From a bacterium (GTDB lineage: Bacteria; Patescibacteriota; Minisyncoccia; Phycocordibacterales; UBA5272), in NCBI GenBank assembly GCA_023267555.1, contig JAHFMZ010000002.1:12304-62252 (forward strand): DNA of 49,949 nucleotides, written 5' to 3'. The notes below the pieces were generated by a model. It worked only from the letters and a program-made list of their open reading frames with translations, was not told the DNA's origin and did not search any database. Positions 9,996-43,680 of this stretch are shown piece by piece; the stretch's first letter is position 1, and each line of letters opens with the position of its first letter. Both the position numbers and the translations under genes were made by a program.

Positions 9996-10082
9996 TAAAG
10001 GCAAAGAAACACTATTCGTAAAACTTTTCTTGACTCGCATCTGACACAATATCTGAACTAAAAAATTCACACCACCCAACTC

Positions 10083-11021: not shown

Positions 11022-11072
11022 AAATACAGTATATCAAAAATAGATTATAAAAATACACGTATAATAATATAC

Positions 11073-12287
11073 CTAAACGAATTTTCCTCGTAGAGTCTTG
11101 TGATAAGTAATAGCAAATCTATGAGCCTCATTATTTGCCAAAAGTATCTCCTTTTTATAGTTTTCTGTATAAGCTTTATCCCCAAGTATTTCTTTTGGTT
11201 TATGACGTTCATCTTTCACTACCGAGACACAAGGAATAAGTAGCCCCAAATGTGCCAAAACTTGCTCGCCCACCCTTTTATGGGCTATACCACCGTCTAA
11301 TACAATTAAATCTGGATATCGCCATTCTTTGTGGGAAAAACGACGCAAGAGGACTTGTCGTAACCCTTCATAATCATCATTAATCTTTTCTTCCAATTTA
11401 AATTTACGATATTCATTTTTTGCTTTCTCTTTTCCTTCTACAACCACCATCACTCCCACTCTTGAGGTACCAGAAATATGAGCCACATCAAAAGCCTCAA
11501 CACGAAAGTCAACATTTTTAAATGATGTTATTTCATCTTCTTTAATCAAACTAATATCTTTTATATGATCCAAAGCAAAAAGTATATTACGCACATTAGC
11601 TGCTTTTTCAAATAAATGTTTTTTAGCATATTCTTTCATATCTTTTTCTAAAGACTTTTTTATGTCATTTTTTTTACCATCAAATAATTTACGAATATTT
11701 CTAATATGTTTTTTATATTCTGTTTCAGTGATATTCCCAACACAAACTCCAGGGCAAAGATGTATCTGGGCATTAAAACATAACTTCCCCTGATTAACTT
11801 CACAGGTATCACGATACGGAAATAATTTACGAATGATTTTCATCGCGATACGAAGTTGTGACAACGAAGCAAATGGACCATAAACTACTTGATAATCTTT
11901 TTTAGAAAACTTCTTCTCAAAATCTCGGATACGCATCGTAAGCACTCTCGCAAATTTTTCTTTAGTAATCACTACACAAGTAAAACTTTTATTATCTTTC
12001 TCCTTTGCGTTATACATCGGAGAATATTTTTTTATAAGTTTGCTTTCTAATAGCAAAGCTTCAAGCACGCTATCTGTTTCTTGATAAGTAACAGTGTTCG
12101 CAACTGTAACCATAGTCACTAAACGAAGTCCCCTAGTTTGCATCAAGTCTGGATTAAAATAACTACGCACTCTATCTTTAAGTGATGTTGCTTTTCCAAT
12201 ATATAAAATAGCCCCTTCTTTGTCTCGAAAAAAATATACCCCTGGATTATCAGGGATCTTGAGTGTGGATAGCTCTTGCCTTTTCAT
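11073..12287 (-). CDS. uvrC: Excinuclease ABC subunit C, lacking the C-terminal (HhH)2 domain
   Basis: GIY-YIG motif (PGVYFFRDKEGAILYIGKA), Cys motif (CFNAQIHLCPGVCVG), UVR domain and RNase H-like endonuclease domain (EAFDVAHISG..DDY..PDLIVLDGG). Start moved to ATG 12287, with TATAAT 7 nt upstream, instead of GTG 12323. Confidence 0.9.
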   Translation of the reverse strand: MKRQELSTLKIPDNPGVYFFRDKEGAILYIGKATSLKDRVRSYFNPDLMQTRGLRLVTMVTVANTVTYQETDSVLEALLLESKLIKKYSPMYNAKEKDNKSFTCVVITKEKFARVLTMRIRDFEKKFSKKDYQVVYGPFASLSQLRIAMKIIRKLFPYRDTCEVNQGKLCFNAQIHLCPGVCVGNITETEYKKHIRNIRKLFDGKKNDIKKSLEKDMKEYAKKHLFEKAANVRNILFALDHIKDISLIKEDEITSFKNVDFRVEAFDVAHISGTSRVGVMVVVEGKEKAKNEYRKFKLEEKINDDYEGLRQVLLRRFSHKEWRYPDLIVLDGGIAHKRVGEQVLAHLGLLIPCVSVVKDERHKPKEILGDKAYTENYKKEILLANNEAHRFAITYHKTLRGKFV

Positions 12288-12686: not shown

Positions 12687-15299
12687 TTATTTTTTGCGTT
12701 TAAGAACTTTTTTAAGATACTGGCCTGTATAAGATTTTACATTTGAAGCTACCTGTTCCGGTGTTCCTGTTGCTACAATTTTCCCACCACCGACACCACC
12801 TTCTGGACCAATATCAATAATATGATCAGCAGATTTTACAATATCCAAATTGTGTTCAATTAAAACAACGGTGTTTCCTTTCTCAACTAACTTGTCTAAT
12901 ATCTCAATTAATTTTGCAATATCTTCATAATGAAGTCCTATAGATGGTTCATCCAAAAGATATATTGTTTTCTCAACGTGAGGACGATACAACTCCGATG
13001 AAATTTTTACTCTTTGAGCCTCTCCGCCAGATAAAGTTGTGGCCGATTGTCCAAGTGTTAAATATGACAAACCTACATCAGATAGAGTTTTGACTCTATC
13101 GTATACAGCTGGAATATCTGCAAAAAATATCAAAGCTTCTTCCACTGTCATATGAAGCACATCATAAATATTTTTTCCTTTCCATTTTACTTCTAAAGTT
13201 TCCTTCATAAAACGTTTACCCAAACAAACATCACACTCTACATATACCGTAGGCAAAAAATGCATCTCCACCGCTATTTCACCGTTTCCCTGGCAAACTT
13301 CACAACGACCACCTTTCACATTAAAAGAAAAACGAGATGCTTTCCAACCACGTATACGCGCTTCTTCTGTTTCTGCAAACAAATCTCTGATATATGTCCA
13401 ACATCCGGTATAAGTCGCGGGATTACTTCGTGGTGTGCGACCAATAGCTCCTTGGTCAATAAGGACCACTCGAGAGACATATTCTGTACCTGCGAATGAT
13501 TCGCAATTATAAATTTTGGCTGTACGATGTCTACGCTCAAGTCTAGCAAGTAAATTGCGATAAAGAATCTCATACATAAGAGAACTTTTACCCGAACCAG
13601 AAACACCTGTGATAGCTGTCAATTTACCAAGTGGAACATTCACATTCATATTTTTAATATTGAAAATATTCCCACCAGTAATTCGCAAAGTTCCTTTATC
13701 TTGTTGTCTGCGAGCTGGAACCGGTATTTCTTTTTCACCCCGAAGATATGCAAGAGTGACACTTCCTGATTTATTTCTTGGTGCCATTAACAATTCATCA
13801 AGATAACCGGATACTACCACCTCCCCACCGTGTACTCCGGCAAGTGGCCCAATGTCTACAATATAATCTGATGCAAAAATAGTATCTTCATCGTGTTCAA
13901 CAATAATAATTGTGTTTCCTATATCACGCAGATGAAGAAGTGTTTGTATAAGTCTCTCATTATCTTTTTGATGAAGACCAATAGTTGGCTCATCAAGCAC
14001 ATAAAGAGCCCCGACAAGTTTAGAACCAAGTTGAGAAGCAAGTCTGATGCGTTGAGCTTCACCACCAGAGAGAGTGTCGGCTTTTCTACTTAAAGATAAA
14101 TAATCAAGTCCAACATTTAACATAAACTGTAAACGTGATTGTATTTCTTTTATCACCACCTGAGCAATCTCTTGTTCTTTTTTATTTAAAGGAAGTTTTG
14201 CAAAATAATCTTCTGCATCTTTAATTGATAATGCTGTTATATCAACAATATTTATTTTTTCTTTATCATCAAGATACACATTTAATGCTTCTTTACGAAG
14301 ACGTTTACCATCACAAACGTCACAAACATCTAATCCACCAAAATATTTGGTACCCAAACCATTACAGGCCGAACAAGCTCCATACGGTGAATTAAAAGAA
14401 AAAAGACGAGGCTCAATTTCTGGGAATGAAAAACCACAAGTTGCGCAAGAAAACTTATTGCTCATAATAGTTTTTTCACCAAGTATTTCCACTTCAAGCA
14501 ATCCATTCGATTCGTGTAGCGCTCGTTCGATTGATTCAGACAAACGAATCATCGCATCTTTTTCTGTTGTCTTATTACGAAAATCGTCCAGTGCTATAGA
14601 ATCAACTACAATAGAAATTTCGTGTTTTTTTGTTTTAGAAAGTAATATTTGTTCACGCAAACTTTTACGCTCACCATTGATAACAGCTTCGGTATAACCT
14701 TTACCCAACATATCATAGAGCATTTGATAATGCTCTCCTTTTCGTCCACGAACAATTGGTGAAAGAATATGAATTTCGGCGTGAGAAAATTTTACCCCCA
14801 TAAGTTCTGTCTTAACTTTTTTGTAATCAACAGCTTTTACTCTATCCAAAATAAAATGCATAATTTCTTCATTTGAAAGTTTTTGAATTTTAGCTCCACA
14901 TTCTATACAGTATGGTTTTCCAACACGTGCATAAAGCACACGCAGATAATCATAGATTTCAGTTATAGTTGCGACTGTTGAGCGTGGGTTACGCCCTGCT
15001 GATTTTTGATCAATTGATATTGCAGGAGAGAGACCGACAATTTCATCAACATCTGGTTTTTGTAATTGTGTTAAAAATTGACGAGCATAGGCAGACAAAG
15101 ATTCAACATATCTACGCTGTCCTTCAGCAAAAATGGTATCAAAAGCAAGAGAAGATTTACCACTACCAGATAAACCCGTAAAGACAATCATTTTATGTCT
15201 AGGCATCTCAACGGTGATATTTTTGAGATTATGCGTACGAGCACCACGAACAATGATACTTTCTAAGTGTTTATTATTTTCTTGTTTTTTGGAAGTCAT
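12687..15299 (-). CDS. uvrA: Excinuclease ABC subunit A
   Basis: 870 aa. Two ABC ATPase modules (GLSGSGKSSLAFDT, GVSGSGKSSL, LSGGEAQR twice) and zinc-finger Cys clusters. Confidence 0.95.
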   Translation of the reverse strand: MTSKKQENNKHLESIIVRGARTHNLKNITVEMPRHKMIVFTGLSGSGKSSLAFDTIFAEGQRRYVESLSAYARQFLTQLQKPDVDEIVGLSPAISIDQKSAGRNPRSTVATITEIYDYLRVLYARVGKPYCIECGAKIQKLSNEEIMHFILDRVKAVDYKKVKTELMGVKFSHAEIHILSPIVRGRKGEHYQMLYDMLGKGYTEAVINGERKSLREQILLSKTKKHEISIVVDSIALDDFRNKTTEKDAMIRLSESIERALHESNGLLEVEILGEKTIMSNKFSCATCGFSFPEIEPRLFSFNSPYGACSACNGLGTKYFGGLDVCDVCDGKRLRKEALNVYLDDKEKINIVDITALSIKDAEDYFAKLPLNKKEQEIAQVVIKEIQSRLQFMLNVGLDYLSLSRKADTLSGGEAQRIRLASQLGSKLVGALYVLDEPTIGLHQKDNERLIQTLLHLRDIGNTIIIVEHDEDTIFASDYIVDIGPLAGVHGGEVVVSGYLDELLMAPRNKSGSVTLAYLRGEKEIPVPARRQQDKGTLRITGGNIFNIKNMNVNVPLGKLTAITGVSGSGKSSLMYEILYRNLLARLERRHRTAKIYNCESFAGTEYVSRVVLIDQGAIGRTPRSNPATYTGCWTYIRDLFAETEEARIRGWKASRFSFNVKGGRCEVCQGNGEIAVEMHFLPTVYVECDVCLGKRFMKETLEVKWKGKNIYDVLHMTVEEALIFFADIPAVYDRVKTLSDVGLSYLTLGQSATTLSGGEAQRVKISSELYRPHVEKTIYLLDEPSIGLHYEDIAKLIEILDKLVEKGNTVVLIEHNLDIVKSADHIIDIGPEGGVGGGKIVATGTPEQVASNVKSYTGQYLKKVLKRKK

Positions 15300-15396: not shown

Positions 15397-15948
15397 CTAT
15401 TGGCCAATAGCTTCTTTTTGACTTGTTTTTACACTCTCTAATGTCTTCTCCACAAGATCGTGTTTAGTCTTTTTATTTTCAACAACGACAAGCCACGAAC
15501 CTATTGAAGCAACGTGCCATTCACTACCTTCCGATTCTGCAACTTGCCAATCATAAGCACCGATTGTTGAAATAACTGTTGGATTTATAACGGAAACGTG
15601 AGGAGCTATAACTTCATTAATATAATCAAGTGGAGTAAATCCTCTTCCTCCTTCGTAACTCATATATACAGTCGCATATGGAATTTCATTATCTACAATT
15701 TTTACAAGTGCATTATCCATATCAAGTGTCGTTGTAGCAGTTTCTGGAATATCAAAACTGTATGAAAGTGTATTGTCTCCTTCATAAACACGCGTGACAC
15801 TTCCAGAAAAAGATTTCATAGATGTCCCGCTCTGGGCTTCCACTTGCTTTTCAGGCTGAACAGAATATCTTTTAATAACTTTATAACCACCGAATAAAAT
15901 AACTACAACAATAATGACTCCAAGGATGATGGCTATATTTTTTTTCAT
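15397..15948 (-). CDS. Membrane-anchored hypothetical protein
   Basis: 183 aa. N-terminal TM anchor (IAIILGVIIVVVILFGG) followed by a soluble domain. I recognise no motif. Confidence 0.55.
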   Translation of the reverse strand: MKKNIAIILGVIIVVVILFGGYKVIKRYSVQPEKQVEAQSGTSMKSFSGSVTRVYEGDNTLSYSFDIPETATTTLDMDNALVKIVDNEIPYATVYMSYEGGRGFTPLDYINEVIAPHVSVINPTVISTIGAYDWQVAESEGSEWHVASIGSWLVVVENKKTKHDLVEKTLESVKTSQKEAIGQ

Positions 15949-20586: not shown

Positions 20587-21477
20587 TTATTGCGCGTAAA
20601 GTTCCATCTTGGCGCGTACTACTTTTCTCATCTCCTCTTGACCTCCTGCGCCAAATTTATAAGGCGCAACTTCATTTGGATTTTCATTCATAAATTCTTT
20701 TTCACCATCACGAAAAGCTTTTCTGATTTCGGTATTAATGTGAATAATCACAATACCAGCATCAATCGCATTTTTTAAATCTTCGTCTGTATTGCCACTA
20801 GCTCCGTGAAGTACCAAAGGGATATCTACGGCACTGATGATTTCTTTTAATCTATCAATATGCAATTTTGGTTCTGGTGCATCCACCAACATTCCGTGCA
20901 CATTTCCAATTGCAGGTGCAAACATATCAATACCTGTACGAATAACAAAATCCTTTGCTTGTTCTTTTGTTGTAAGGTTGGCATCACTCACACCTTCAGG
21001 TAAAGTTTTGTTAAGTGAAGATGATTGACCAATATATCCAAGCTCTGCTTCTATTAAAACTTTCTTTTCTGTTTTTGCTTCATAAGCACGCACATAATCC
21101 ACACACTTTTTTACAAGAGAAACATTTTCTTCATATGAAAGTTTTGCACCATCAATGATCACACTATCATAACCAGCTTCTACCACTTCAACAACTTTTT
21201 CAAATGAATAAGTATGGTCGGCATTCAAAAAAATTGCCACATTATATTCTTGATTCAATTCATCTACAATTTTTCTCGCCATTTCTACACCAATATACTT
21301 TCTCTCACCTTCACTCACACCAATTATGACTGGTTGTTTTAATTCTTCGGCAATCTCACAAATTACGCGAGCTTGATCAAGATTGGAAATATTAAAATGA
21401 GCAATAGCTTTACCCGCTTGTTTATATTCATTAATAATTTCAAAATAAACTTCGCTTTGGGGGGTGAGTGACTTCAT
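20587..21477 (-). CDS. fba: Class II fructose/tagatose-bisphosphate aldolase
   Basis: 296 aa. FbaA-family layout (AHFNISNLDQ, VLHGASG, HINTE). Confidence 0.85.
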   Translation of the reverse strand: MKSLTPQSEVYFEIINEYKQAGKAIAHFNISNLDQARVICEIAEELKQPVIIGVSEGERKYIGVEMARKIVDELNQEYNVAIFLNADHTYSFEKVVEVVEAGYDSVIIDGAKLSYEENVSLVKKCVDYVRAYEAKTEKKVLIEAELGYIGQSSSLNKTLPEGVSDANLTTKEQAKDFVIRTGIDMFAPAIGNVHGMLVDAPEPKLHIDRLKEIISAVDIPLVLHGASGNTDEDLKNAIDAGIVIIHINTEIRKAFRDGEKEFMNENPNEVAPYKFGAGGQEEMRKVVRAKMELYAQ

Positions 21478-25084: not shown

Positions 25085-25543
25085 TTATTTAGTTAACTCC
25101 TCAATTTGAATTATACGATCCGAATGACGTTCGGCGTGTGAAAATGGAGTCATTAAAAATAAATCAATCGCTTGCTTGGCTTCATTTTCTGTGACAAAAC
25201 GTGCACCAATAGAAAGTACGTTTGTGTCATTATGTTCCCGTGATACTTTTATAACATCAAGTGGCCCGCCAGCGTACACAACAGCACGCACGTGAGCAAA
25301 TCTATTAGCCACTACTGCCTCCCCAACACCTGAACCACCAAAGATGACAGCTACGCTCGGATCACTCATTGAATCCTCTTGTACTTTTTCTGCGGCTCGC
25401 GCCATATATTCTGGATAATCATCACCATTTTCCAAAGTAAGAGCCCCACAATCATAAACTTCGTGGTTTTTATCTTCTAAATAAGATTTAATCTTTTCTT
25501 TTAATTCAAAGCCGGCGTGGTCGGTCGCTAAATAAATTTTCAT
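25085..25543 (-). CDS. rpiB: Ribose-5-phosphate isomerase B
   Basis: 152 aa. RpiB/LacAB pattern (IYLATDHAGFELKE, GGSGVGEAVVANR). Confidence 0.9.
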   Translation of the reverse strand: MKIYLATDHAGFELKEKIKSYLEDKNHEVYDCGALTLENGDDYPEYMARAAEKVQEDSMSDPSVAVIFGGSGVGEAVVANRFAHVRAVVYAGGPLDVIKVSREHNDTNVLSIGARFVTENEAKQAIDLFLMTPFSHAERHSDRIIQIEELTK

Positions 25544-27165: not shown

Positions 27166-28509
27166 TTATATATTAAACTTATCCGTAAAATACTGTTCTA
27201 ATTCTGCAACTGGAATGCGCACTTGCTCCATTGTATCGCGATCACGCACTGTTACAGCATTATCATTTAACGTATCGAAATCTACTGTCACACAATATGG
27301 TGTACCAATTTCATCTTGACGACGATAACGTTTGCCGATTGATTGAGTTTCATCATATTGAACACGTGCAATCTTTTTTAATTTCTTTACAATTCCTTGC
27401 GCAGGAGTTGAAAGTTCTTCTTTCTTTGAAAGTGGTAATACTGCGATTTGAATAGGTGCAATAGATGGAACAAAAGCAAGAACTATACGTGTTTCATCTC
27501 CAACTTTTTCTTCTTTATACGCACTTGCAAGTGTTGCCAACACGGTACGCTCTACACCAATTGATGGCTCTATACAATGTGGAATAAATCTTTCTTTTGT
27601 TTCTTCATCAAAATAGGACAAATCGGTTTTACTAAATTCCGTATGTTGTTTCAAATCATAATCAGAACGATATACAAGTCCAGCAAGTTCCTTTTGTCCA
27701 ATTGGAAAATCAAATTCAAAATCAATTGTTCTTTTACTATAAAAGGCTCTTTCTTCTTCCCCTATTTCTACTTCGTGAATCATTTTTTCTGGAAGGCCGA
27801 TAGAAATCATCCAAGATTTAAATTCTTTTCTTAAATGTTCAAAAGTTTCTTCCCATTTTGATGGGTGACAAAAATATTCTATTTCCATTTGTTCCATTTC
27901 CCTCAAACGAAAAATAAAATCCCGCGGTGCAATTTCATTTCGAAAAGCTTTACCCATTTGAGCTAAACCGAAAGGAAGTTTTGGGTGGAAACTGTCTACC
28001 ACATTTTTGAAATTCACAAACATTCCTCCAGCAGTCTCTGGACGAAGATAGGAAATAGAAGTTGGATCTTCTGTAGCACCAATTTCTGTCTTGAACATCA
28101 TATTAAATTGACGAGGTGTACCGAGTTTCTCTTTATCATTAGGACAAAATTGAACCCCATCGATTATTTCAATGTGGTCTGCACGAAAACGTCTTTTACA
28201 TTTTGGACATTCTATAAGTGGATCAGAAAACCCAGAGACGTGTCCACTGGCTTCCCAAGCTTTTGGATTCATCAAAATAGCAGCATCTACTCCATAAATA
28301 TCATCACGATTAGTTACAAAATGATCCCACCAACTATTTTGTATATTTCTCTTTAAGGCGACACCCAGTGGTCCATAATCAAAAGTTCCAGCAAGACCTC
28401 CGTAGATTTCTGAACCTTGAAAAATAAAACCCCTTCGTTTACACAAAGAAACTATTGCTTCCATACGAGATTGTGAATCGTTTGTGTTCATATCAAATGA
28501 TTCTAGCAT
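27166..28509 (-). CDS. glyQS: Glycine--tRNA ligase (single-chain GlyQS type)
   Basis: 447 aa. Motifs RRGFIFQGSEIYGG and class II motifs (FRNEIAPR, GIGVERTV-like SIGVERTV). The start abuts the stop of the upstream pilin-like gene. Confidence 0.9.
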   Translation of the reverse strand: MLESFDMNTNDSQSRMEAIVSLCKRRGFIFQGSEIYGGLAGTFDYGPLGVALKRNIQNSWWDHFVTNRDDIYGVDAAILMNPKAWEASGHVSGFSDPLIECPKCKRRFRADHIEIIDGVQFCPNDKEKLGTPRQFNMMFKTEIGATEDPTSISYLRPETAGGMFVNFKNVVDSFHPKLPFGLAQMGKAFRNEIAPRDFIFRLREMEQMEIEYFCHPSKWEETFEHLRKEFKSWMISIGLPEKMIHEVEIGEEERAFYSKRTIDFEFDFPIGQKELAGLVYRSDYDLKQHTEFSKTDLSYFDEETKERFIPHCIEPSIGVERTVLATLASAYKEEKVGDETRIVLAFVPSIAPIQIAVLPLSKKEELSTPAQGIVKKLKKIARVQYDETQSIGKRYRRQDEIGTPYCVTVDFDTLNDNAVTVRDRDTMEQVRIPVAELEQYFTDKFNI

Positions 28510-28833
28510 CTAGTACTGAAACATTCCACCTAACACACTATTAAATAATGGCAGTATTCCCCCAACTGAAAAAATAATAAAAAGTCCGATAAGCCCCCAT
28601 AATAAATGACTCTTGCCAAAATTTTTCTTTTCTGGGTCATTTAAATCATAAACAAATTTGGCGACACCATAAAGAAAATATAATAAAGCAATACCAGCAA
28701 CTAATTGATATAGAGGACTAAAAACCCACTTAACTACATTTTGAAGAACAATTTGCCCATTCGCAGCAACATCAGCAAAAGTAATTACTACACCACTAAA
28801 TATCAAAGAGAGAGAAATTAATACTTTTTTCAT
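28510..28833 (-). CDS. Pilin-like small secreted membrane protein (signal peptide plus two helices)
   Basis: 107 aa from ATG 28833 (MKKVLISLSLIFSG...), with TATACT 12 nt upstream. Two hydrophobic helices are separated by DLNDPEKKNFGK. Confidence 0.6.
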   Translation of the reverse strand: MKKVLISLSLIFSGVVITFADVAANGQIVLQNVVKWVFSPLYQLVAGIALLYFLYGVAKFVYDLNDPEKKNFGKSHLLWGLIGLFIIFSVGGILPLFNSVLGGMFQY

Positions 28834-28902
28834 ATATGTGAATCTAGTATAGCAGAAAATAGAAAGAAGACGGTAGAGGACACAGACACAGCATAGATAC
28901 AT

Positions 28903-28931
28903 CGAGAGCGACCCCTAGGGGGTCGCTCTCG
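28903..28931. terminator. Perfect 13-bp GC-rich hairpin
   Basis: CGAGAGCGACCCC-TAG-GGGGTCGCTCTCG. Confidence 0.55.
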
Positions 28932-28976
28932 TATTTCTCTTCTCTCTACATTCTGCTTTCTACCACACTGGATTAA

Positions 28977-29375
28977 CTAGCCTGGGATCGGAACACCTGG
29001 GATTGGAACTGAACCACCTTGGTTGATACCAACAAGTGATCCCATAAATCCAACAAGACCCCAAATAGAAACCATCACAAAAAGTGCGAGTATCGCATAC
29101 CCCATACCCTTTAATGAGGCTGATTTTTCGTCAGGATTTTCACTACCCTTCCAAATAAACTTAATGAGGAACCAGAAAAAGGCCAACACCGCCAATCCAA
29201 CAGCAAATGGTACAAGACGAGTTACGATTGTCTGTGCAAGTGCTAAAAGTTGTAGAAGAGCACCACCATTTACCTGCCCTTGATTTGCTCCGACACCAAT
29301 GTTGATACTAATTTGTGCGGACGCAAGCATAATATTGCCAGCTACGACTGAAACGAGGGTTAAAGCTTTTTTCAT
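28977..29375 (-). CDS. Pilin-like small secreted membrane protein
   Basis: 132 aa. Signal peptide ends LASAQ. Helix-loop-helix with loop KGSENPDEKSASLKG. C-terminal tail VPIPGVPIPG. Confidence 0.6.
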   Translation of the reverse strand: MKKALTLVSVVAGNIMLASAQISINIGVGANQGQVNGGALLQLLALAQTIVTRLVPFAVGLAVLAFFWFLIKFIWKGSENPDEKSASLKGMGYAILALFVMVSIWGLVGFMGSLVGINQGGSVPIPGVPIPG

Positions 29376-29479
29376 ATGTTTATTATTTTGTATAATTTAA
29401 GTATATCCCCAATCCAAGGCTTTGCAAGTAACCCTATCAACAGATTAAAATAATTGAAATATATAAAAATCTAACAAAG

Positions 29480-29537
29480 AAAAAGAGGCCACCCACCGCG
29501 TTATCGCGATGAGACGATACGCGAGAGGAGACCTCTC
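29480..29537 (-). terminator. Compound hairpin region ending in a T-run (minus strand)
   Basis: On the minus strand: GAGAGG-TCT-CCTCTC, CGCG-rich hairpins, then GGCCTCTTTTTC. Follows the GC-rich operon. Confidence 0.4.
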
Positions 29538-29585
29538 TGTCATTTAACGTATGACTACGGATTTGAGTGGTTTTCTCCACAAAAG

Positions 29586-29915
29586 TTAAGGCTTGCCAAT
29601 CTTCTTTTTTGCTTCATCGATTATCAATTTAGCGATAACTGCCACCCAAATAATGATGACAGCATAAAGCGCTAAAGTAATAACGATGCGACCAATTCCA
29701 CCCATTACTGCACGAATACCAGAGGTGAAATTTGCCAAAGCATTTCCTGCCTGTTGCATTGAATTCGAAATCCCGCCCAACTGAGACCCGAACGAATCAA
29801 GGACAAGCTGGATCAAAGCTCCACCGACGATGACTATTGCAACAATGGCAACACCGACGCCAATGACAATTCCAAGCCCTGTCCAAGCTTTTGCTATAGG
29901 ACTTTTTTCAGCCAT
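29586..29915 (-). CDS. Small multi-helix membrane protein, hypothetical
   Basis: 109 aa from ATG 29915 (MAEKSPIAKAW...). GGAGG lies 6 nt upstream, inside the end of the preceding gene. Confidence 0.55.
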   Translation of the reverse strand: MAEKSPIAKAWTGLGIVIGVGVAIVAIVIVGGALIQLVLDSFGSQLGGISNSMQQAGNALANFTSGIRAVMGGIGRIVITLALYAVIIIWVAVIAKLIIDEAKKKIGKP

Positions 29916-29917
29916 AA

Positions 29918-30802
29918 TCAACCTCCAATCTTGAGATAACCACCAGCACCGATAATCACCCTAAACTTTGTTCTAAGATGACTGTTGACTAAGTCCATAC
30001 AAACACCTGACGGGTTGTTGTTGGGCTCTATTCGTCCACACTTCTCAAAAAGGTGGTCGTCGTAAGGAACATCGAAAGCAATCAGATAATTTTCCCCCCG
30101 CAGAGAAGTGACTGGATAATCAAACTTTGACCAAGCACAGCCTGGAATAAAATTAAGAACTTTTCCTGGAGACGTTTCTTGAGGCTTGTCCGAAAATAGT
30201 GCAAAATTTTGCATCATAACAGAAATGTCGGCACAATCAAACATATATGCACGCACAATTTCTGGTTCTTGTACTGCTGTATGTTGTATCGTGGTCGGTG
30301 AAGGCTTCACGCTGCGAAGAATTTCTGCCTCCTTGGCTTTCGCTTTGGCATCAGCAACAATCTTTTCATTTTGAGCAGTGTCCAACCATTCACCTGTATA
30401 CACCATAACTCCATTGGCCACTATAATTACAATAGCCAAAAGTGTCACGTGAACGGCGATCTTGGTCATAGTTCCTTGTCTTTTCCACCAACCATCAAAC
30501 CCACCACCAGTAGTATTTCCTCCACCACCAGAACCACCGCCCCTACGTTCTTCACTTTCAGGTTCTTGGTCCGAAGTAGTATCAGGACTAGTAGCAACAG
30601 GTTCACTTGGCTTATCGGAAACAGCCGGCGTTGTATCGGCAGGTTTTGCAGGTGGTGTTCCTTTCCCCGGCCTCTTCGTGTTACTCGGGTCCCCTCCTCC
30701 AGTTCGATCAAAGAAATGTCTGGCATACCTAACATTCCCGTTATCTATAAATTCGTGTTCAGGATTATCGGATTTTGCAACTTTATTTTCATCAGTAGAC
30801 AT
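29918..30802 (-). CDS. Single-pass membrane protein with a disordered P/T/S/G-rich N-terminus and a Cys-containing C-terminal domain
   Basis: 294 aa. GGAGG lies 9 nt upstream of the ATG. One TM helix (IAVHVTLLAIVIIVANGVMVY). The region is visibly GC-richer than its flanks. Confidence 0.6.
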   Translation of the reverse strand: MSTDENKVAKSDNPEHEFIDNGNVRYARHFFDRTGGGDPSNTKRPGKGTPPAKPADTTPAVSDKPSEPVATSPDTTSDQEPESEERRGGGSGGGGNTTGGGFDGWWKRQGTMTKIAVHVTLLAIVIIVANGVMVYTGEWLDTAQNEKIVADAKAKAKEAEILRSVKPSPTTIQHTAVQEPEIVRAYMFDCADISVMMQNFALFSDKPQETSPGKVLNFIPGCAWSKFDYPVTSLRGENYLIAFDVPYDDHLFEKCGRIEPNNNPSGVCMDLVNSHLRTKFRVIIGAGGYLKIGG

Positions 30803-30933
30803 AATGTCTTACCTCCAAAAAAGTTAGTCAAAAAAGACTCGTTTATATAAAACAACTACTAATAAAACACTACCCTAGTTTTATCTATTTGTCAAAAGTC
30901 TGTATATCTATAAAATAAATTTCCATCAAATAA

Positions 30934-31932
30934 CTACGGAGTATTTGCGTAACAAACTCCACCACTACAAGTCCCTCCATCAACGACACCACCAATATCA
31001 CAACCAATTCCCTCTGTTGCTATTCCAGAACATTGAAAGTTAGTATTTGCAGAATTTCCAGCAGCCGTACAAGTATTGTCAGCAGGATCACAGAAACTAG
31101 ATTCACACTGTGAATTGGAAGTACAAGAATAGCCGTTTGGTTTTAGTGCACCATTTCCTGCAGTGGTACAAGTATTGTCTACAGGATCGCAGAAACTAGA
31201 TGAACATTGTGAATTTGAAGTACACGAGTAACCATTAGGTTTTAAAGCACCGTTTCCCGCAGCAGTACAAGTATTATCTACAGAATCACAAAAACTAGAT
31301 TCACACTGTGAATTGGAAGTACAAGAATAGCCGTTTGGTTTTAACGCACCACTTCCGACGGCTGTACAAGTATTATCTACAGGGTCGCAGAAACTAGTCG
31401 CACATTGCGAGTTTGTTGTACAAGAATAGCCATTGGGTCTTCCACTTGTTGAAGTGTTTGTATTGTTATTTTGTAAGCCAGAATAATTTGTATTTAATCC
31501 CCCTGGTAAACCGTTACCAATCAAGACATTCCCCGCTCCTGGCTGAATATTAATTGAAGGAATAACGATTGTATTTTGACCTTGTATACCAAATATATTT
31601 TGAGCATATTGAACGATACCCCAAACTGAGAACATCACAAAAAGTGCTATGAGACCCCAGACCATAAATTTTTGTCCCTTTTCAATATTTGCTGCAACCC
31701 CTTCTCGTATACCCCAGATGTATTGAACAATTCCGTAAAAAAATGCTGCCATCGCGGCTGTTGCAAAAAGTGTAGCGAGAGATTTTACTATTGAATTTGT
31801 GAATGTATTCACAATACCACCAACCGTATTAATACCTTGCGTTACGTTACTGGCTGATTGAGCTGAAACTAATAATGGAACAGCAATAAGGCTAGTAATA
31901 ATAAGTGTCCGTAACGTAAAAAGTTTTTTCAT
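30934..31932 (-). CDS. Pilin-like module fused to four Cys-rich 33-aa repeats
   Basis: 332 aa. Signal peptide ends LVSAQ. Helix-loop-helix with loop GIREGVAANIEKGQK. An N/G/T-rich linker is followed by 4 x (KPNGYSCTSNSQCESSFCDPVDNTCTAAGNGAL). Confidence 0.7.
   Translation of the reverse strand: MKKLFTLRTLIITSLIAVPLLVSAQSASNVTQGINTVGGIVNTFTNSIVKSLATLFATAAMAAFFYGIVQYIWGIREGVAANIEKGQKFMVWGLIALFVMFSVWGIVQYAQNIFGIQGQNTIVIPSINIQPGAGNVLIGNGLPGGLNTNYSGLQNNNTNTSTSGRPNGYSCTTNSQCATSFCDPVDNTCTAVGSGALKPNGYSCTSNSQCESSFCDSVDNTCTAAGNGALKPNGYSCTSNSQCSSSFCDPVDNTCTTAGNGALKPNGYSCTSNSQCESSFCDPADNTCTAAGNSANTNFQCSGIATEGIGCDIGGVVDGGTCSGGVCYANTP
31054..31440 (-). repeat. Four in-frame 99-bp tandem repeats
   Basis: Period is 99 bp. 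31094..31145 and 31292..31343 are identical over 52 nt. Confidence 0.9.
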
Positions 31933-32011
31933 ATATTAAAGTATGATAATAGTGTATCTCAAATCATTATCAAATACTATGTAACAATCCCCTTGCTGTA
32001 TAACAAAATTC

Positions 32012-33190
32012 TTATCTTGTTATAGTTCTATCAAGAATACATATAGAATTAACGTCACAAGTGCCCAAGCTTTGACCTAATTGACACCTAGTCCCAGAAG
32101 ATAATCCGGAACAAGAGGCTGGTAACACTCTTTGATTTTTATCCAAAAAACACACCGAGGAGACATCACAAGTGCCCATATCGGATCCAAGTTTACATCT
32201 AGTTCCGACAGGCAATTGATAACACGATGATGGATACACTCTTTGATTAGCATCTAAAAAGCAAATAGAAGAGGCGTCACAATGTCCGGGTCTGGTACCT
32301 AATTGACAGACAGTGCCAACAGGTTTTCCCGCACAAGGAGAAGAAAGATCACAGACACTAGGAATACCAGAACTACATACACCGGAATTACCGTCAACCT
32401 GACACACGTCCCCTGCTGCTCTACCACTGCAAGGATTTGTCATAGAAGGATTAGGGTTAAGTGCTTGTGTATTTGTATTTGCAGTTGTATTTATATTAGG
32501 TAGTACTTGATTTACTGTCCCTTTAAGAGCAAGTAATAAACCTTGTAACGTAAATATAACTATTGTAGATATTACTGCCCACAAAAGCCATTGATGAGCC
32601 TTCTTAAGAGCTTCTGGATTTCCTTGAGCTATAACATATGCAAAACCCGACCATACCCACATCGCAATAATCGCTGGATATACAACAAAACTCATAACAA
32701 GTCTCACTACTACGAGAAGAAAATCATACAAGCTAGTAACTCCAAGTGGATTTGGTAAATACTGACCTTGAGCATACGCGTGAGTGACAAACGCATCTGA
32801 AATCAATTTTAAAAATGTAGAATTGACACCCAAGAATTGAAGCATCACTAACAAAAATCCACCAAGCACTGCAAGAATAACCAAAAAACCGATAAGCCCC
32901 TGGCCTATTTGTTTGGTAGCAGTTTTATATGCTCCAGCATTTCCTTCTATCAAAGCTTTTTGGGCAAGAAGTAAACGAATAATAATAACTACCGGCAAAA
33001 TAACTATTCCTATTTCTGTAATTAAAGTAAGAAATCTAGTGATAACTGTTTTTGCATCATTAAAAGTACATTTGGTCGCTATGGAATTCCCACATATCTC
33101 TGCAATAGATGTCTGTGCATAAACTATATGCAACGACGCTAGAATAGAAAAAGAAGCTAGAATTAATGTGAGTATATGTTGTTTTTTCAT
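32012..33190 (-). CDS. Tandem double pilin-like module fused to a second type of Cys-rich repeat
   Basis: 392 aa from ATG 33190 (MKKQHILTL...). Two helix-loop-helix modules follow IVYAQ and HAYAQ respectively. The C-terminus has about 3 x 37-aa repeats (C..PVGT.C.LG...G.CD.SS.CFLD.NQRV.P.S). Confidence 0.7.
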   Translation of the reverse strand: MKKQHILTLILASFSILASLHIVYAQTSIAEICGNSIATKCTFNDAKTVITRFLTLITEIGIVILPVVIIIRLLLAQKALIEGNAGAYKTATKQIGQGLIGFLVILAVLGGFLLVMLQFLGVNSTFLKLISDAFVTHAYAQGQYLPNPLGVTSLYDFLLVVVRLVMSFVVYPAIIAMWVWSGFAYVIAQGNPEALKKAHQWLLWAVISTIVIFTLQGLLLALKGTVNQVLPNINTTANTNTQALNPNPSMTNPCSGRAAGDVCQVDGNSGVCSSGIPSVCDLSSPCAGKPVGTVCQLGTRPGHCDASSICFLDANQRVYPSSCYQLPVGTRCKLGSDMGTCDVSSVCFLDKNQRVLPASCSGLSSGTRCQLGQSLGTCDVNSICILDRTITR

Positions 33191-33251: not shown

Positions 33252-34556
33252 TTAAGGATGAGTATACAGGTCTTGAAGACGAGATACAAAGATACTGGAA
33301 GCATCAGACACACTGGCGCGATTATTGAGTACATCTGAAATCATAGCGCTCGTATAAGCATCAGAATCCTCAGGATAACTATCATACCAGCCTTTAGCCA
33401 CCAACATACTGCGTGAAATAATATCATTTAATCCAGAAGTTGTGCTGTAAGTACGGAGCGCAGGCACAGCTCCGATAATCGCAGATATTGATGGAGAAAC
33501 TCCCGCCCCCGAAAACTGTGCTTCGACATTTAATGCAGCTGTAGGATTTTTGGAAGATTTTAAAGTTGCAATTCCATACATACGCGCACCCGTTGAAAAT
33601 GTATTATATCCTTTGGCCTGTGGTAAATATGTCATTTCAAAATCTCCTCTTGGATTACGTGCCTTAAGTGTATTTAATTCACCAGAGTATCCAATATACA
33701 TCGCAAGTTTTTCTGCAACAAATATATCGTCAGCGTTTCCAGAAAATTGATTCCAAGAATAAGTTATCTTTGTAGGATCTGCAAATTGTGTAAAAAAACG
33801 TAACGCCGAAGAAAGCGGCAAAACATCGTTGGTATTTGTTGGAGAAATATTAGCCAAAACACCGATTGCTGATGACCCATCTTGATTATATTGTTTAAGA
33901 ACTGGAGTTTGACCGAGCTCAGAAACAATAGCCATAAGAATGTCTTTTGCATATGGTGTATTTGGTGCACCAAGAGCAATACCCGATTCAACAAATTGAC
34001 CTTTAGTATTTAAAATAGTAAGTCTTGGTACAATACTCATCACATCATCCCAAGTTGTAGGAGGACCAACAATACCTTGTTTTGAAAAAAGTGTACGATT
34101 ATAAAAAAGTACCATAGGTTCTATTGATACAGGAAGCGCTATGGCACCCAAAGGAGTAGAGAATAACGAAGCACCATCAACATATGCATCTTTGAAAGAT
34201 TTTTCAGAAAGTGAAGCTATCGGGAATGGATAAAGTCTAGCTTCTTGTGACAAAATAATCTGTTGTGGTGCCATAATCATATCTGGCCCTGTTCCACTTG
34301 CCAAAGCTTCTACCAATGTCTTTGCAAACACGTCTTCACGAACTTGTTTGTAAGTTACGCGATAAGTTTTGGCCTGAGGATTAAAAGCCTGCACTATTTT
34401 ATTCATATCAACATCAGGAAGAGTCCCCCAAAGAATTACTTCACCTTGAGGAGAATTCGCAGTGTTGTTACTTCCAATAGGAAGTTTCCCCGAAAAAATA
34501 AGAATAGAAAACAACGCTGCAAAAGCACCAGCGCCAAGTAATATATTACGCAACAT
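33252..34556 (-). CDS. Extracellular solute-binding protein, family 1 (sugar-type ABC SBP), membrane anchored
   Basis: 434 aa with an N-terminal anchor. SBP_bac_1-like composition. No permease or ATPase is adjacent. Confidence 0.7.
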   Translation of the reverse strand: MLRNILLGAGAFAALFSILIFSGKLPIGSNNTANSPQGEVILWGTLPDVDMNKIVQAFNPQAKTYRVTYKQVREDVFAKTLVEALASGTGPDMIMAPQQIILSQEARLYPFPIASLSEKSFKDAYVDGASLFSTPLGAIALPVSIEPMVLFYNRTLFSKQGIVGPPTTWDDVMSIVPRLTILNTKGQFVESGIALGAPNTPYAKDILMAIVSELGQTPVLKQYNQDGSSAIGVLANISPTNTNDVLPLSSALRFFTQFADPTKITYSWNQFSGNADDIFVAEKLAMYIGYSGELNTLKARNPRGDFEMTYLPQAKGYNTFSTGARMYGIATLKSSKNPTAALNVEAQFSGAGVSPSISAIIGAVPALRTYSTTSGLNDIISRSMLVAKGWYDSYPEDSDAYTSAMISDVLNNRASVSDASSIFVSRLQDLYTHP

Positions 34557-38452: not shown

Positions 38453-38773
38453 CTATCTTGTGTATGTCTCTTTTCCTTCCAAAAGAGAAGATCCTTTAGT
38501 GCCAATACTTCCAAATTGTGTGTGGGCTTCATCCCAAAAACGCGATAACATTTCACCGAGCGACTCCGACTCAACTTTAGGATTAGTAACTGTTTCCGAA
38601 ATCACTAAATCATCTGATCTTTGATATTTTTCGTGCCAAAATCCATAATCGGTATACAAAATAATTACAGCAATAAGCGCAGTAATAGATCCTGCAAAAA
38701 CAATAGCGTGCATATGTTGCATATGTTTCGGCTGTTTACGCATATAACGAATGTATCCTTTCAGAGTTCTCAT
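38453..38773 (-). CDS. Membrane-anchored hypothetical protein
   Basis: 106 aa with one TM helix (AIVFAGSITALIAVIILY). TATACT lies 6 nt upstream of the ATG. Confidence 0.5.
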   Translation of the reverse strand: MRTLKGYIRYMRKQPKHMQHMHAIVFAGSITALIAVIILYTDYGFWHEKYQRSDDLVISETVTNPKVESESLGEMLSRFWDEAHTQFGSIGTKGSSLLEGKETYTR

Positions 38774-42849: not shown

Positions 42850-42951
42850 ATTAGTATGAGTGTATCATCCATAAAGCAAACAGCAATAAGTAAAAAATAA
42901 TTAAAAAATCTTTTGTTGCACGACAACAAATGAAACTATATACTAAAAATA

Positions 42952-43680
42952 ATGTTATCTTCTGTATACACTTCTTTTGCCTCGTCACTTAGTGATATGT
43001 CACAAAATCCTGTCTCGGTATTTATCTTTGGAACACTAGTGCTCTTGATAGCTGCCCTTTTTATCGCAACGATGTCCCCATCTTGGCGTAATGCTTTGGT
43101 AAAAATAAGATTACTTGAAAGAGATGAGTCACCGACCTCACTTTTAACTTGGATTATTGGAATAATTATTTTAGTGAAACTAATACAAGGCTTTCTTATA
43201 CAGCCGTTCATTGTAGACGGTGGATCAATGCTTCCAACTTATCACAATCAAGAGTTTCTTTTAGTAGACAAATTTTCATATTTAATCGGCAAACCTCATC
43301 GTGGTGACGTTATGATATTCAAATTATACGAAGGAGAAACAAATCCTTATAACGGAAAATATTTAATCAAAAGAGTTATCGGACTTCCGGGTGAACACAT
43401 TGTAGTGAGAAATGGTGTAACAATAATATACAACAAAGATTATCCAAATGGTTTTACTGTTGAAGAATCATTTGTGGCATACAAAGACATACAAAAAAAT
43501 GCCGATGTCACATTGGATGATCACCATTATTTTATGATGGGAGACAATCGCACACAAAGCTATGATAGTCGTGATTGGGGACCATTAGATAGTGCAAACA
43601 TTAGGGGGCAAGTTTTATTCCGAATATTCCCACTATCAAAATTATCATACGAACCAGGCCAGTATAAATATGATAAATAA
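42952..43680 (+). CDS. lepB: Signal peptidase I
   Basis: 242 aa. Motifs GGSMLPT, KRVIGLPGE and GDNRTQSYDSR. TTGCAC-N17-TATACT promoter 7 nt upstream. Confidence 0.85.
   Translation: MLSSVYTSFASSLSDMSQNPVSVFIFGTLVLLIAALFIATMSPSWRNALVKIRLLERDESPTSLLTWIIGIIILVKLIQGFLIQPFIVDGGSMLPTYHNQEFLLVDKFSYLIGKPHRGDVMIFKLYEGETNPYNGKYLIKRVIGLPGEHIVVRNGVTIIYNKDYPNGFTVEESFVAYKDIQKNADVTLDDHHYFMMGDNRTQSYDSRDWGPLDSANIRGQVLFRIFPLSKLSYEPGQYKYDK

What the first reader, a model, noticed from the sequence alone, without database searches (positions are those of the whole stretch)
28510..33190. Cluster of four VirB2/TrbC-like pilin-like genes (five modules) with no secretion or pilus ATPase in sight
Four minus-strand genes within 4.7 kb carry five copies of one module.

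Each module has these parts:
- A Sec-type signal peptide ending in A-Q (LASAQ/IS, LVSAQ/SA, IVYAQ/TS, and an internal HAYAQ/GQ).
- A hydrophobic helix.
- A short charged loop (DLNDPEKKNFGK, KGSENPDEKSASLKG, GIREGVAANIEKGQK, AQGNPEALKKAHQ, IEGNAGAYKTATKQ).
- A second hydrophobic helix, often ending in LF(I/V)(I/M)FS(V/I)(W/G)G.

This is the architecture of VirB2/TrbC-type conjugative pilins. It is also typical of the small pilin-like families that are common in CPR genomes. That link is inferred from architecture, not from a search.

Each gene has its own TATACT-type -10 box. Two copies carry large extracellular Cys-rich repeat domains, so they would make plausible adhesive tips or surface fibres. 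No VirB4, VirD4, VirB6, PilB, PilC or PilT-like gene occurs anywhere in the 50 kb.

The smallest copy ends at 28510 and the essential glyQS starts at 28509, so it is probably co-transcribed with a housekeeping gene. A paralogous pilin-like array with appended adhesin-like repeats and no visible machinery is the best candidate here for an undescribed cell-surface or host-contact system.
Basis: partly seen in the sequence, partly recalled or inferred. Interest (0 to 1): 0.8.

Follow-up and report, generated by a model that had tools for sequence, protein, structure and literature searches.

The report
Patescibacterial T4SS-type pilin gene array
This is a real cluster of five "type IV secretion pilin" modules in four genes of an ultrasmall Paceibacteria-type (CPR) bacterium; such arrays are already described in this phylum, but this conserved version is always preceded by a solute-binding-protein gene, is never next to the secretion ATPase, and includes a two-in-one pilin.

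Summary
Four minus-strand genes (28510-33190) carry exactly five copies of one helix-loop-helix module, and no other copy occurs in the 50 kb. Pfam places the module in PF18895 (T4SS_pilin). This family also forms the essential six-gene pilin array of the Southlakia epibionticum T4SS. It was also used to catalogue 441 "VirB2 arrays" in Patescibacteria. So the kind is known, not undescribed.

No VirB4, VirD4 or PilB gene lies in the window or within 7-10 kb of about 75 related loci. Published counts show about 40% of pilin-bearing assemblies keep their pilin genes away from virB4.

What I add:
- The locus is an old, vertically inherited block: gyrA, methyltransferase, membrane-anchored SBP, then the array. 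56 of 57 SBP homologues are followed by the array.
- The paralogues keep a fixed order. Orthologues are 39-72% identical and paralogues 21-32%.
- Gene D is a tandem double pilin. Its outward-facing linker has a conserved small-x-Ala motif that looks like a signal-peptidase site.
- Gene B has its own conserved promoter and flanking terminators, so it is the candidate major subunit.
- The Cys-rich tails vary between strains.

A link to solved VirB2 pilins by sequence or fold could not be shown.

The parts
33252..34556 (-). Membrane-anchored SBP_bac_1-type solute-binding protein homologue (434 aa). It is the conserved first gene of the locus.
   Evidence: Pfam SBP_bac_1 E 5.8e-15. N-terminal TM anchor. 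Weak similarity to sugar ABC-transporter binding proteins in the PDB. It sits directly upstream of the array in 17/17 genome loci. From the SBP side, 56/57 metagenome loci have the array downstream.
32012..33190 (-). Gene D: tandem double pilin (392 aa). Order: signal peptide; Cys33/Cys41 loop; module 1 (aa 42-125, nt 32816-33067); linker with HAYA|Q (aa 137-141, nt 32768-32782); module 2 (aa 141-235, nt 32486-32770); Cys-rich tail of four ~37-aa units (aa 254-384).
   Evidence: PF18895 30.6 bits, two stretches. Two module-HMM domains. AF2 gives two helical hairpins and a low-confidence linker. A138-Y139-A140 are invariant in 14 homologues. 16 tail Cys.
30934..31932 (-). Gene C: pilin module (aa 33-120) plus a Cys-rich tail of four 33-aa C-x5-C-x4-C-x6-C units and a 4-Cys terminal unit (332 aa).
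   Evidence: PF18895 19 bits. Module HMM 1.4e-31. BLAST to A 1e-10. 99-bp x 3.9 tandem repeat at 31054-31438. 20 Cys. Tail length differs in orthologues, which are 175-281 aa overall.
29918..30802 (-). Gene X2: non-pilin bitopic membrane protein (294 aa). It has a disordered P/T/S/G-rich N-terminus, one TM helix and a C-terminal domain of about 110 aa with 4 Cys. A GGAGG Shine-Dalgarno site precedes it.
   Evidence: No Pfam or NCBIfam hit. Small family of 33 representatives with invariant C190 and G221-C222. Found between C and B in 6 of 18 genome loci. SD seen.
29586..29915 (-). Gene X1: small two-TM membrane protein without a signal peptide (109 aa). Its SD-led ATG (29913-29915) lies 2 nt downstream of the X2 stop codon (29918-29920).
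   Evidence: Two TM helices. 25% identity, E 8e-10, to the positional homologue in L004. No family hit.
29476..29538 (-). Conserved long hairpin plus U-run after X1. Read as an intrinsic terminator closing the D/C/X2/X1 transcription units.
   Evidence: RNAalifold on four loci gives 22 pairs, 6 of them with compensatory changes, followed by a T-run. No Rfam family matches.
29400..29427 (-). Conserved sigma-70-type promoter of gene B (TTGCAA, 16-17 nt spacer, TATACT).
   Evidence: Found by the scan. The TTGCAAA and GATATACT blocks are invariant in the window, L003, L004 and L011.
28977..29375 (-). Gene B: single pilin module with a conserved Pro-rich C-terminal tail (132 aa). Candidate major subunit.
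   Evidence: PF18895 26.2 bits. Orthologues are 68-69% identical. It has its own conserved promoter and terminators on both sides.
28903..28931 (-). 13-bp GC-rich hairpin between B and A. Terminator-like; canonical terminators sit at the same place in L003 and L012.
28510..28833 (-). Gene A: smallest and most conserved pilin module (107 aa). TATACT lies 12 nt upstream (28846-28851). Its stop codon abuts the glyS start.
   Evidence: PF18895 33.9 bits and NCBIfam NF045849 E 1.8e-7. 129 homologues, most of them 83-90 aa without a signal peptide. AF2 hairpin with pLDDT 82.5. Sequence.
27166..28509 (-). glyS (class II glycyl-tRNA synthetase). Probably co-transcribed with A. Not part of the pilin system.
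   Evidence: Pfam. No spacer and no -10 box near its start. It follows the array only in the close clade.
42952..43680 (+). Signal peptidase I (LepB, Peptidase_S26). The enzyme expected to cut the A-x-A sites of the pilin precursors.
   Evidence: Pfam E 3.4e-38. Its role at these sites is inferred.

Best explanation
The cluster encodes the pilin-like subunit set of the Patescibacteria-type (monoderm, MPF-FATA-related) type IV secretion system. Its VirB4 ATPase and channel genes would lie elsewhere on the chromosome.

Shown:
- The five modules belong to PF18895.
- Each is a signal-peptide-led helix-loop-helix membrane hairpin.
- All Cys-rich segments lie in stretches predicted to be outside the cell.

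Inferred mechanism:
- The precursors enter the membrane through Sec/YidC. Signal peptidase I cuts after small-x-Ala, mostly leaving an N-terminal Gln.
- The mature hairpins sit with both ends outside and a weakly basic loop inside.
- A T4SS extracts them and stacks them into a pilus-like or stalk-like surface structure.
- B would be the bulk subunit, because it is strongly and separately expressed and conserved. A would be a conserved core or base subunit.
- C and D would be low-copy subunits displaying strain-variable disulfide-rich repeats for contact with the host cell.
- D is probably a polyprotein cut at its internal H-A-Y-A|Q site into two pilins.
- The upstream membrane-anchored SBP homologue and the X2/X1 membrane proteins are probably accessory parts.
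For: Family assignment:
- PF18895 hits for A and D above Pfam's cut-off, B at the cut-off, and C homologous by BLAST and a local HMM.
- NCBIfam's nearest model is a Mycoplasma ICE 'pilin-like conjugal transfer protein' (E 1.8e-7, below its cut-off).

Link to T4SS:
- PF18895 proteins SEML1_0014-0019 sit in the Southlakia T4SS cluster with VirB4 and PrgI, and all are essential (PMC10633639).
- VirB4 is present in 2417 of 3035 Patescibacteria assemblies. Pilin genes are away from virB4 in about 40% of pilin- and VirB4-positive assemblies (PMC12102498).

Anatomy:
- Hairpin shape from hydropathy and AF2 (pLDDT 82.5 for A; 71-90 for the D modules).
- Cys counts are even and all lie in predicted outside segments.
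- In L024 and L026, Cys-rich domains are inserted in the D linker right after the AYA motif. This puts the linker outside the cell.
- The -1 Ala is invariant and the -3 residue is small or aliphatic in 27 D-type proteins.
- LepB is encoded in the window.

Roles of the paralogues:
- Fixed paralogue order, with orthologues 39-72% and paralogues 21-32% identical.
- B has a conserved promoter and flanking terminators.
- The tails vary in copy number between strains.
- Relatives fuse the module to adhesin-type domains such as InlB B-repeats and TSP3.
Against: - No T4SS gene lies in the 50 kb or within 7-10 kb of about 75 related loci. I could not show that this genome has a VirB4 at all.
- No sequence or fold link to solved VirB2, TraA or TrbC pilins. 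TrbC scores E 0.5. A profile search of PDB sequences found none. hhalign against two true VirB2 sequences gave 12% and 0.3% probability. Foldseek returned only generic helical hairpins.
- No pilus of this type has been seen in any patescibacterium (PMC12857230).
- Most A orthologues lack a signal peptide.
- The locus is always tied to an SBP gene, which is not a known T4SS part.
- Internal cleavage of D rests on motif conservation alone. The AYA motif lies about 19 residues after the end of helix 2, which is far for signal peptidase I.
Confidence: 0.55

Rival explanations
1. The locus is a T4SS-independent envelope module. The hairpins serve only as membrane anchors or small oligomeric membrane assemblies. 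Together with the anchored SBP homologue they would form a host-contact or nutrient-capture complex, and the 'pilin' name would be misleading for this subfamily.
For: - SBP-then-array order in 17/17 genome loci and 56/57 metagenome loci, down to 30% SBP identity.
- Never next to virB4.
- No detectable similarity to solved pilins.
- The module is fused to many different outside domains.
- A orthologues without a signal peptide look like ordinary two-TM proteins.
Against: - The same Pfam family sits inside T4SS clusters and is essential there.
- 1135 assemblies have such genes near virB4.
- gyrA and a methyltransferase are conserved upstream as well. The SBP adjacency may therefore be inherited gene order and not functional coupling.
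- No ABC permease or ATPase accompanies the SBP.
Confidence: 0.27
2. The hairpin proteins work with the type IV pilus (PilB/PilT) machinery and not with a T4SS.
For: In one distant locus (L030) the SBP-array is followed directly by PilO, PilB, a patatin-like gene and PilT.
Against: - This is a single case. The other loci have glyS or unrelated genes downstream.
- The proteins have Sec-type signal peptides and two TM helices. They lack the short class III leader and single N-terminal helix of type IV pilins (sequences).
- The only PilM_2 hit in the window belongs to FtsA.
Confidence: 0.04
3. The array is a set of recently duplicated, interchangeable antigenic-variation cassettes. This has been suggested for VirB2 paralogues in Bartonella and Anaplasma and floated for Patescibacteria.
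For: - Paralogues are divergent, which matches the 25% mean identity reported for arrays.
- The C tail is a recent tandem repeat with 80% DNA identity between units.
Against: - Each position has its own orthologue in other species, with much higher identity (39-72%) than between paralogues (21-32%). The order D-C-B-A is fixed in independent loci.
- Only the tails vary, not the modules.
Confidence: 0.04

Closest known systems
Essential pilin array of the Southlakia epibionticum ML1 T4SS (SEML1_0014-0019; Wang et al. 2023, PMC10633639)
   Same: - Same Pfam family (PF18895).
- About the same number of small paralogous genes, six there and five modules here.
- Same phylum.
- Fold classifiers also return only generic helical hairpins there, for example ATP synthase subunit c.
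   Different: - There the array lies inside the T4SS cluster next to VirB4 and PrgI. Here it sits between gyrA and glyS with no T4SS gene within reach.
- This locus adds a leading SBP gene, a double-module gene, Cys-rich tails and two non-pilin membrane genes.
- Essentiality is unknown here.
'VirB2 arrays' of Patescibacteria (Quinonero-Coronel et al. 2025, PMC12102498)
   Same: It meets their description: several PF18895 genes in tandem or separated by non-pilin genes, with low identity between copies.
   Different: - They report arrays as most abundant in Microgenomatia and Saccharimonadia, and they analysed virB4 neighbourhoods.
- Their main text does not mention solute-binding proteins, ABC transporters, glycyl-tRNA synthetase, signal peptides or fused pilins.
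- So the SBP-led, gyrA-linked, virB4-unlinked Paceibacteria block, the fixed paralogue order and the double pilin are not described there.
VirB2/TrbC conjugative pilins (Agrobacterium T-pilin, RP4 TrbC; Pfam PF04956)
   Same: - Long signal peptide, two hydrophobic helices and a short polar loop.
- By my recollection, not checked here, VirB2 is also cut before a Gln.
- Weak reciprocal cross-hits: A to TrbC at E 0.5, and Brucella VirB2 to PF18895 at E 0.037.
   Different: - No significant sequence or fold match.
- The host is a monoderm.
- No linked virB operon.
- Appended Cys-rich domains and tandem fusion are not features of classical VirB2.
Mycoplasma ICE 'Mbov_0395 family pilin-like conjugal transfer protein' (NCBIfam NF045849)
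   Same: It is the best NCBIfam match for A (E 1.8e-7, covering 69 of 80 model positions) and a weaker match for B and D. It comes from wall-less monoderms whose ICEs use the MPF-FATA class, to which patescibacterial VirB4 is related.
   Different: The score is below the curated cut-off (30.7 vs 40 bits). No literature on its function was found. tblastn of A against 72,556 plasmids found nothing.

Membership tests
Pfam PF18895 T4SS_pilin | Match to the family HMM at or above the gathering score (26.6 bits) | tested here: met
   A 33.9 bits and D 30.6 bits with two stretches. B scores 26.2 bits, just under the cut-off, and C 19 bits, below it. C is tied to A and B by BLAST (1e-10, 2e-10) and by a local module HMM (1e-31).
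Pfam PF18895 T4SS_pilin | Small secreted or membrane protein with two hydrophobic helices joined by a short polar loop | tested here: met
   Hydropathy. AF2 hairpins H2-65/H70-100 in A, and H43-81/H87-119 plus H154-187/H192-229 in D.
Patescibacterial VirB2-like pilin array (PMC12102498) | [quoted passage not shown] | tested here: met
   D-C and B-A are adjacent. C and B are separated by two non-pilin genes, X2 and X1.
Patescibacterial T4SS component | Encoded in or near a cluster with VirB4, PrgI/VirB3 and VirB6 | tested here: not met
   None in the 50-kb window. None within 10 kb of 18 genome loci or within 7 kb of about 57 metagenome loci. Published data show this holds for about 40% of pilin-bearing assemblies.
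Patescibacterial T4SS component | A VirB4 ATPase is present somewhere in the same genome | not testable with these tools
   The contig ends at the window start, and only short contigs are available beyond its other end. The related MAGs are absent from the paper's tables. The prior from the literature is 80% of assemblies.
TrbC/VirB2 pilin (Pfam PF04956) | Match to the family HMM | tested here: not met
   A scores 11.1 bits, E 0.5, against a cut-off of 27.9. The other three give no hit. Two true VirB2 sequences score 63 and 78 bits in the same search.
TrbC/VirB2 pilin (Pfam PF04956) | Remote homology by profile-profile comparison or fold | tested here: inconclusive
   hhalign of the A family against VirB2 gives 12% probability with an in-register alignment of helix 1; the mixed module profile gives 0.3%. 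Foldseek against the PDB returns only generic hairpins with E > 0.3. A PDB sequence profile search finds no pilin.
TrbC/VirB2 pilin (Pfam PF04956) | Polymerises into an extracellular pilus | not testable with these tools
   This needs microscopy or biochemistry. It has not yet been shown for any patescibacterium.
Type IV pilin (T4P/T2SS pseudopilin) | Short class III leader ending in Gly, followed by one hydrophobic N-terminal helix with Glu5 | tested here: not met
   The sequences have MKK-led Sec-type signal peptides of 20-26 residues and two TM helices. No G|F-x-x-x-E motif is present.
SBP_bac_1 (gene upstream of the array) | Match to the family HMM; normally partnered with ABC permease and ATPase genes | tested here: inconclusive
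   The HMM match is met (56.5 bits). No permease or ATPase partner lies in the window.

The most novel reading that the evidence does not exclude
The SBP-led array is a distinct, widely conserved Paceibacteria apparatus and not just a detached piece of the T4SS. In this reading:
- A membrane-anchored binding protein works with a filament or channel built from five specialised hairpin subunits to capture material from the host and pass it inward.
- One subunit pair is made as a polyprotein and cut by signal peptidase at an internal A-Y-A site.
- Strain-variable disulfide-rich tails set host specificity.

This would be the first concrete parts list for the 'pilus as uptake conduit' idea raised for Patescibacteria.
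Probability: 0.15. Interest if true: 0.8.

Novelty: new member of a known kind. Interest (0 to 1): 0.4.

Why it matters
Patescibacteria make up a large share of bacterial diversity and live attached to other cells. How they take what they need from the host is unknown. Their T4SS and its pilin array are essential in the one species that can be manipulated genetically, yet no pilus has been seen and no role is assigned to the many paralogues.

This locus shows that in Paceibacteria the pilin set is a stable, vertically inherited block with specialised members: a strongly expressed small subunit, a two-in-one subunit, and subunits with variable Cys-rich tails. It always follows a binding-protein gene. 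That gives testable candidates for the major subunit, the adhesive subunits and a possible substrate-capture partner.

As a discovery of a new kind of system it does not stand, because the family and its arrays are already published.

Tried and rejected
- PDB sequence search with a module profile: the best hit was a de novo designed channel at E 0.098, and no pilin appeared.
- Foldseek of AF2 models of D and A against the PDB: nothing significant. The D tail weakly resembled choline-binding, CROP and glucan-binding beta-hairpin repeats (E 0.36), which is only a lead.
- hhalign against two VirB2 sequences recalled from memory and validated by Pfam: weak.
- X2: the word-indexed search found only itself. 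The exhaustive search found a small unannotated family. Its profile hit only Gly-rich low-complexity PDB chains.
- Extending the contig to look for VirB4 failed, because the window begins at the contig end and the other side is a separate short contig.
- The related MAG accessions are not in the supplementary tables of PMC12102498.
- Rfam: no family in the cluster.
- Promoter consensus scan: at chance level (27 found vs 27.6 expected).
- tblastn of A against plasmids: no match.
- Literature search on the Mycoplasma NCBIfam families: nothing useful.
- Rejected readings: chance hydrophobic ORFs (homology E-values and conserved orthologues argue against); a mobile element (GC content like its surroundings, and core-gene synteny); recent duplication (orthologue vs paralogue identities).

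Full report
WHAT IS THERE

The region holds six minus-strand genes, not four:
- D: 32012-33190, 392 aa.
- C: 30934-31932, 332 aa.
- X2: 29918-30802, 294 aa.
- X1: 29586-29915, 109 aa.
- B: 28977-29375, 132 aa.
- A: 28510-28833, 107 aa.

A membrane-anchored SBP_bac_1 homologue (33252-34556) lies upstream and glyS (27166-28509) downstream. Hydropathy gives a signal-like N-terminus plus two TM helices for A, B and C, and four for D. X1 has two TM helices and no signal peptide. X2 has one TM helix.

Pfam puts the repeated module in PF18895 (T4SS_pilin). Scores are A 33.9, D 30.6 (two stretches), B 26.2 and C 19.0 bits, against a cut-off of 26.6. BLAST between paralogues and a local module HMM tie C to the others. 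They show exactly five modules in the window and none elsewhere. X1 and X2 match no Pfam or NCBIfam model.

C carries 20 Cys. Sixteen lie in four 33-aa C-x5-C-x4-C-x6-C units encoded by a 99-bp x 3.9 tandem repeat. D carries a Cys33/Cys41 pair and 16 tail Cys in four units of about 37 aa.

SURROUNDINGS

Pfam scans of 46 ORFs across the window found only core genes:
- Replication and repair: DnaE, UvrABC, GyrA.
- RNA and translation: RNase J, TGT, L33, GlyRS, HisRS, S1, Pth, YbeY.
- Glycolysis and pentose-phosphate enzymes.
- Envelope and division: LepB, FtsA, FtsZ.

There is no VirB4, VirD4, VirB6 or PilB/C/T. GC content in the cluster (0.39-0.40) is close to that of its neighbours. The source is a metagenome contig, and relatives are labelled Candidatus Paceibacterota. 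The contig could not be extended.

WHAT IS KNOWN

- A survey of 3035 Patescibacteria genomes with PF18895 and PF04956 found VirB4 in 2417 assemblies.
- It found VirB2-like pilins in 1948 VirB4-positive assemblies, but near virB4 in only 1135.
- It found 441 arrays of 2-11 pilin genes with a mean identity of about 25% (PMC12102498).
- In Southlakia epibionticum, six PF18895 genes (SEML1_0014-0019) lie in the T4SS cluster and are essential (PMC10633639).
- A 2025 review notes that no pilus has yet been seen. It speculates about a conduit for uptake from the host (PMC12857230).

A pilin array with no ATPase nearby is therefore a documented situation in this phylum.

COMPARATIVE ANATOMY (NEW HERE)

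Synteny. Close relatives show the same order: SBP, D, C, (X2, X1), B (one or two copies), A, glyS, L33, GAPDH and onward. A genome-collection scan with the D alignment gave 18 species-level loci.
- The SBP homologue is directly upstream in 17 of 17 loci with enough DNA, including three distant arrays.
- Searching from the SBP side gave 80 metagenome loci. Of the 57 with at least 1.2 kb downstream, 56 carry 1-6 modules on the same strand.
- All 36 long loci read (gyrA)-methyltransferase-SBP-pilins; gyrA was found in 34 of them, and in one the methyltransferase is on the opposite strand. glyS follows only in the closer clade.
- None of the large flanking ORFs is a T4SS ATPase.
- One distant locus is followed by PilO, PilB and PilT.

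Because gyrA and a methyltransferase are conserved too, the SBP adjacency may be partly inherited gene order. Its tightness suggests a shared role: same strand, sometimes overlapping the next gene, and both products outside the cell.

Paralogues. Orthologues are 71-72% identical for A, 68-69% for B, 39-52% for C and 39-55% for D. Paralogues within the window are 21-32% identical. These are old, specialised paralogues, not variation cassettes.

Gene D.
- Its two modules are joined by a linker whose A138-Y139-A140 is invariant in 14 homologues.
- In 13 further species the -1 Ala is invariant and the -3 residue is A, T or L.
- In two species a Cys-rich domain of about 100 aa is inserted immediately after this motif. 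The linker must therefore lie outside the cell, where signal peptidase I acts. LepB is encoded at 42952-43680.
- AF2 models the two hairpins with pLDDT 71-90 and the linker at 42-49.

I infer that D is a polyprotein cut into two pilins. This is not shown.

Gene A. It has 129 homologues. Most are 83-90 aa and start right at the mature region, so they lack a signal peptide.

Fusions. Relatives fuse the module to InlB-type B-repeats, TSP3 repeats or other large domains. This fits a role as a carrier of surface domains.

EXPRESSION SIGNALS

The generic promoter scan is at chance, and TATACT is not enriched. Even so, about 20 of 46 genes have a TATACT- or TATAAT-like box 5-12 nt before the ATG and no Shine-Dalgarno site. 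This points to widespread leaderless mRNAs.

- A has TATACT 12 nt upstream, and its stop codon abuts the glyS ATG. Co-transcription with glyS is likely.
- B has a TTGCAA-N16/17-TATACT promoter that is conserved in four loci.
- Upstream of that promoter lies a conserved long hairpin plus U-run (22 pairs, 6 with compensatory changes).
- Downstream of B lies a strong hairpin, with canonical terminators at the same place in L003 and L012.
- X2 and X1 use GGAGG sites.

B is thus a separately and probably strongly expressed unit, which makes it the best candidate for a major subunit.

LINK TO CLASSICAL PILINS

This could not be established.
- TrbC scores E 0.5.
- The module profile finds no pilin among PDB sequences.
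- hhalign against two Pfam-validated VirB2 sequences gives 12% and 0.3% probability.
- Foldseek finds only generic helical hairpins. The Southlakia study's own fold classification did the same.
- NCBIfam's nearest model is a Mycoplasma ICE pilin-like protein, below its cut-off.

VERDICT

The most likely reading (about 0.55) is the subunit set of the patescibacterial T4SS encoded away from its ATPase. The main rival (about 0.27) is a T4SS-independent envelope module built around the SBP.

I file it as a new member of a known kind. Three features appear undescribed in the papers I could search: the SBP-led conserved block, the double pilin with a probable internal cleavage site, and the fixed division of labour among paralogues.

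Noticed in passing
whole window; e.g. 10083-11021(-), 15397-15948(-), 20587-21477(-), 25085-25543(-), 33252-34556(-), 38453-38773(-), 42952-43680(+): About 20 of 46 genes have a TATACT/TATAAT/TAGAAT box only 5-12 nt upstream of the ATG and no Shine-Dalgarno site. Leaderless mRNAs therefore seem to be common in this genome. A minority of genes (X2, X1) use GGAGG instead.
   Followed up: partly
window 33252-34556 (-); L013-L030; L031-L110: A TM-anchored SBP_bac_1 homologue without any ABC permease or ATPase partner always precedes the pilin array: 17/17 genome loci and 56/57 metagenome loci. The wider block (gyrA)-methyltransferase-SBP-array is present in all 36 long loci, with gyrA found in 34.
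   Followed up: yes
window 29476-29538 (-); L003 ~3836-3905; L004 ~13560-13635; L011 ~8876-8945: The long hairpin plus U-run after X1 is far better conserved in sequence than the neighbouring X1 protein (25% identity). It shows 6 compensatory pairs and matches no Rfam family. It is probably a terminator, but it could be more.
   Followed up: partly
window 28977-29030 (-), C-terminus of B: B orthologues share a conserved C-terminal tail, G-I-N-Q-G-G-x-V-P-I-P-G-V-P-x-P. It might be a processing or sorting signal. TRF also flags a 15-bp x 1.9 repeat here.
   Followed up: no
window 29918-30802 (-): X2 belongs to a small unannotated family of 33 representatives. Members have a disordered N-terminus with a poly-Gly run, one TM helix, an A/K/E-rich stretch and a 4-Cys C-terminal domain. 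The family occurs inside pilin arrays in 6 of 18 species.
   Followed up: partly
L030 11820-17270: In one distant Paceibacterota MAG the SBP-pilin array is followed directly by type IV pilus genes: PilO, PilB, a patatin-like gene and PilT.
   Followed up: partly
L024 and L026 (D-type genes, ~9920-11190): Cys-rich domains of about 100 aa are inserted between the two pilin modules, right after the conserved AYA motif.
   Followed up: partly
L100 8303-9940; L029 5737-7311; L030 8545-9930; L021 2-1879; L083 9119-11041: The PF18895 module is fused to large outside domains. L100 has three InlB-type B-repeats, L021 has a TSP3 repeat, and the others carry unknown N- or C-terminal domains.
   Followed up: partly
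L017 6422-7984 (-); L022 1320-2864 (-); L097 13377-15122 (-): Thiol-disulfide oxidoreductase genes (DCC1-like; DsbD/thioredoxin-like) lie near the array in some relatives. They could serve the Cys-rich tails.
   Followed up: no
window 3533-5251 (+): A second binding-protein gene (SBP_bac_5, 572 aa) also has no adjacent permease or ATPase. SecG lies just upstream.
   Followed up: no
window ~42850-42950 and ~9150: Gene orientation flips from minus to plus at about 42.9 kb, between pth and lepB, and cumulative GC skew reaches its minimum near 44 kb. A convergent flip lies at about 9.15 kb. This could mark a replication origin or only operon polarity. No dnaA gene is present.
   Followed up: no
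L016-L019, L024-L027, L029 record titles: Several MAGs carrying this Paceibacterota-type block are deposited as 'uncultured Candidatus Saccharibacteria'. This is probably a labelling artefact of the submitting pipeline.
   Followed up: no
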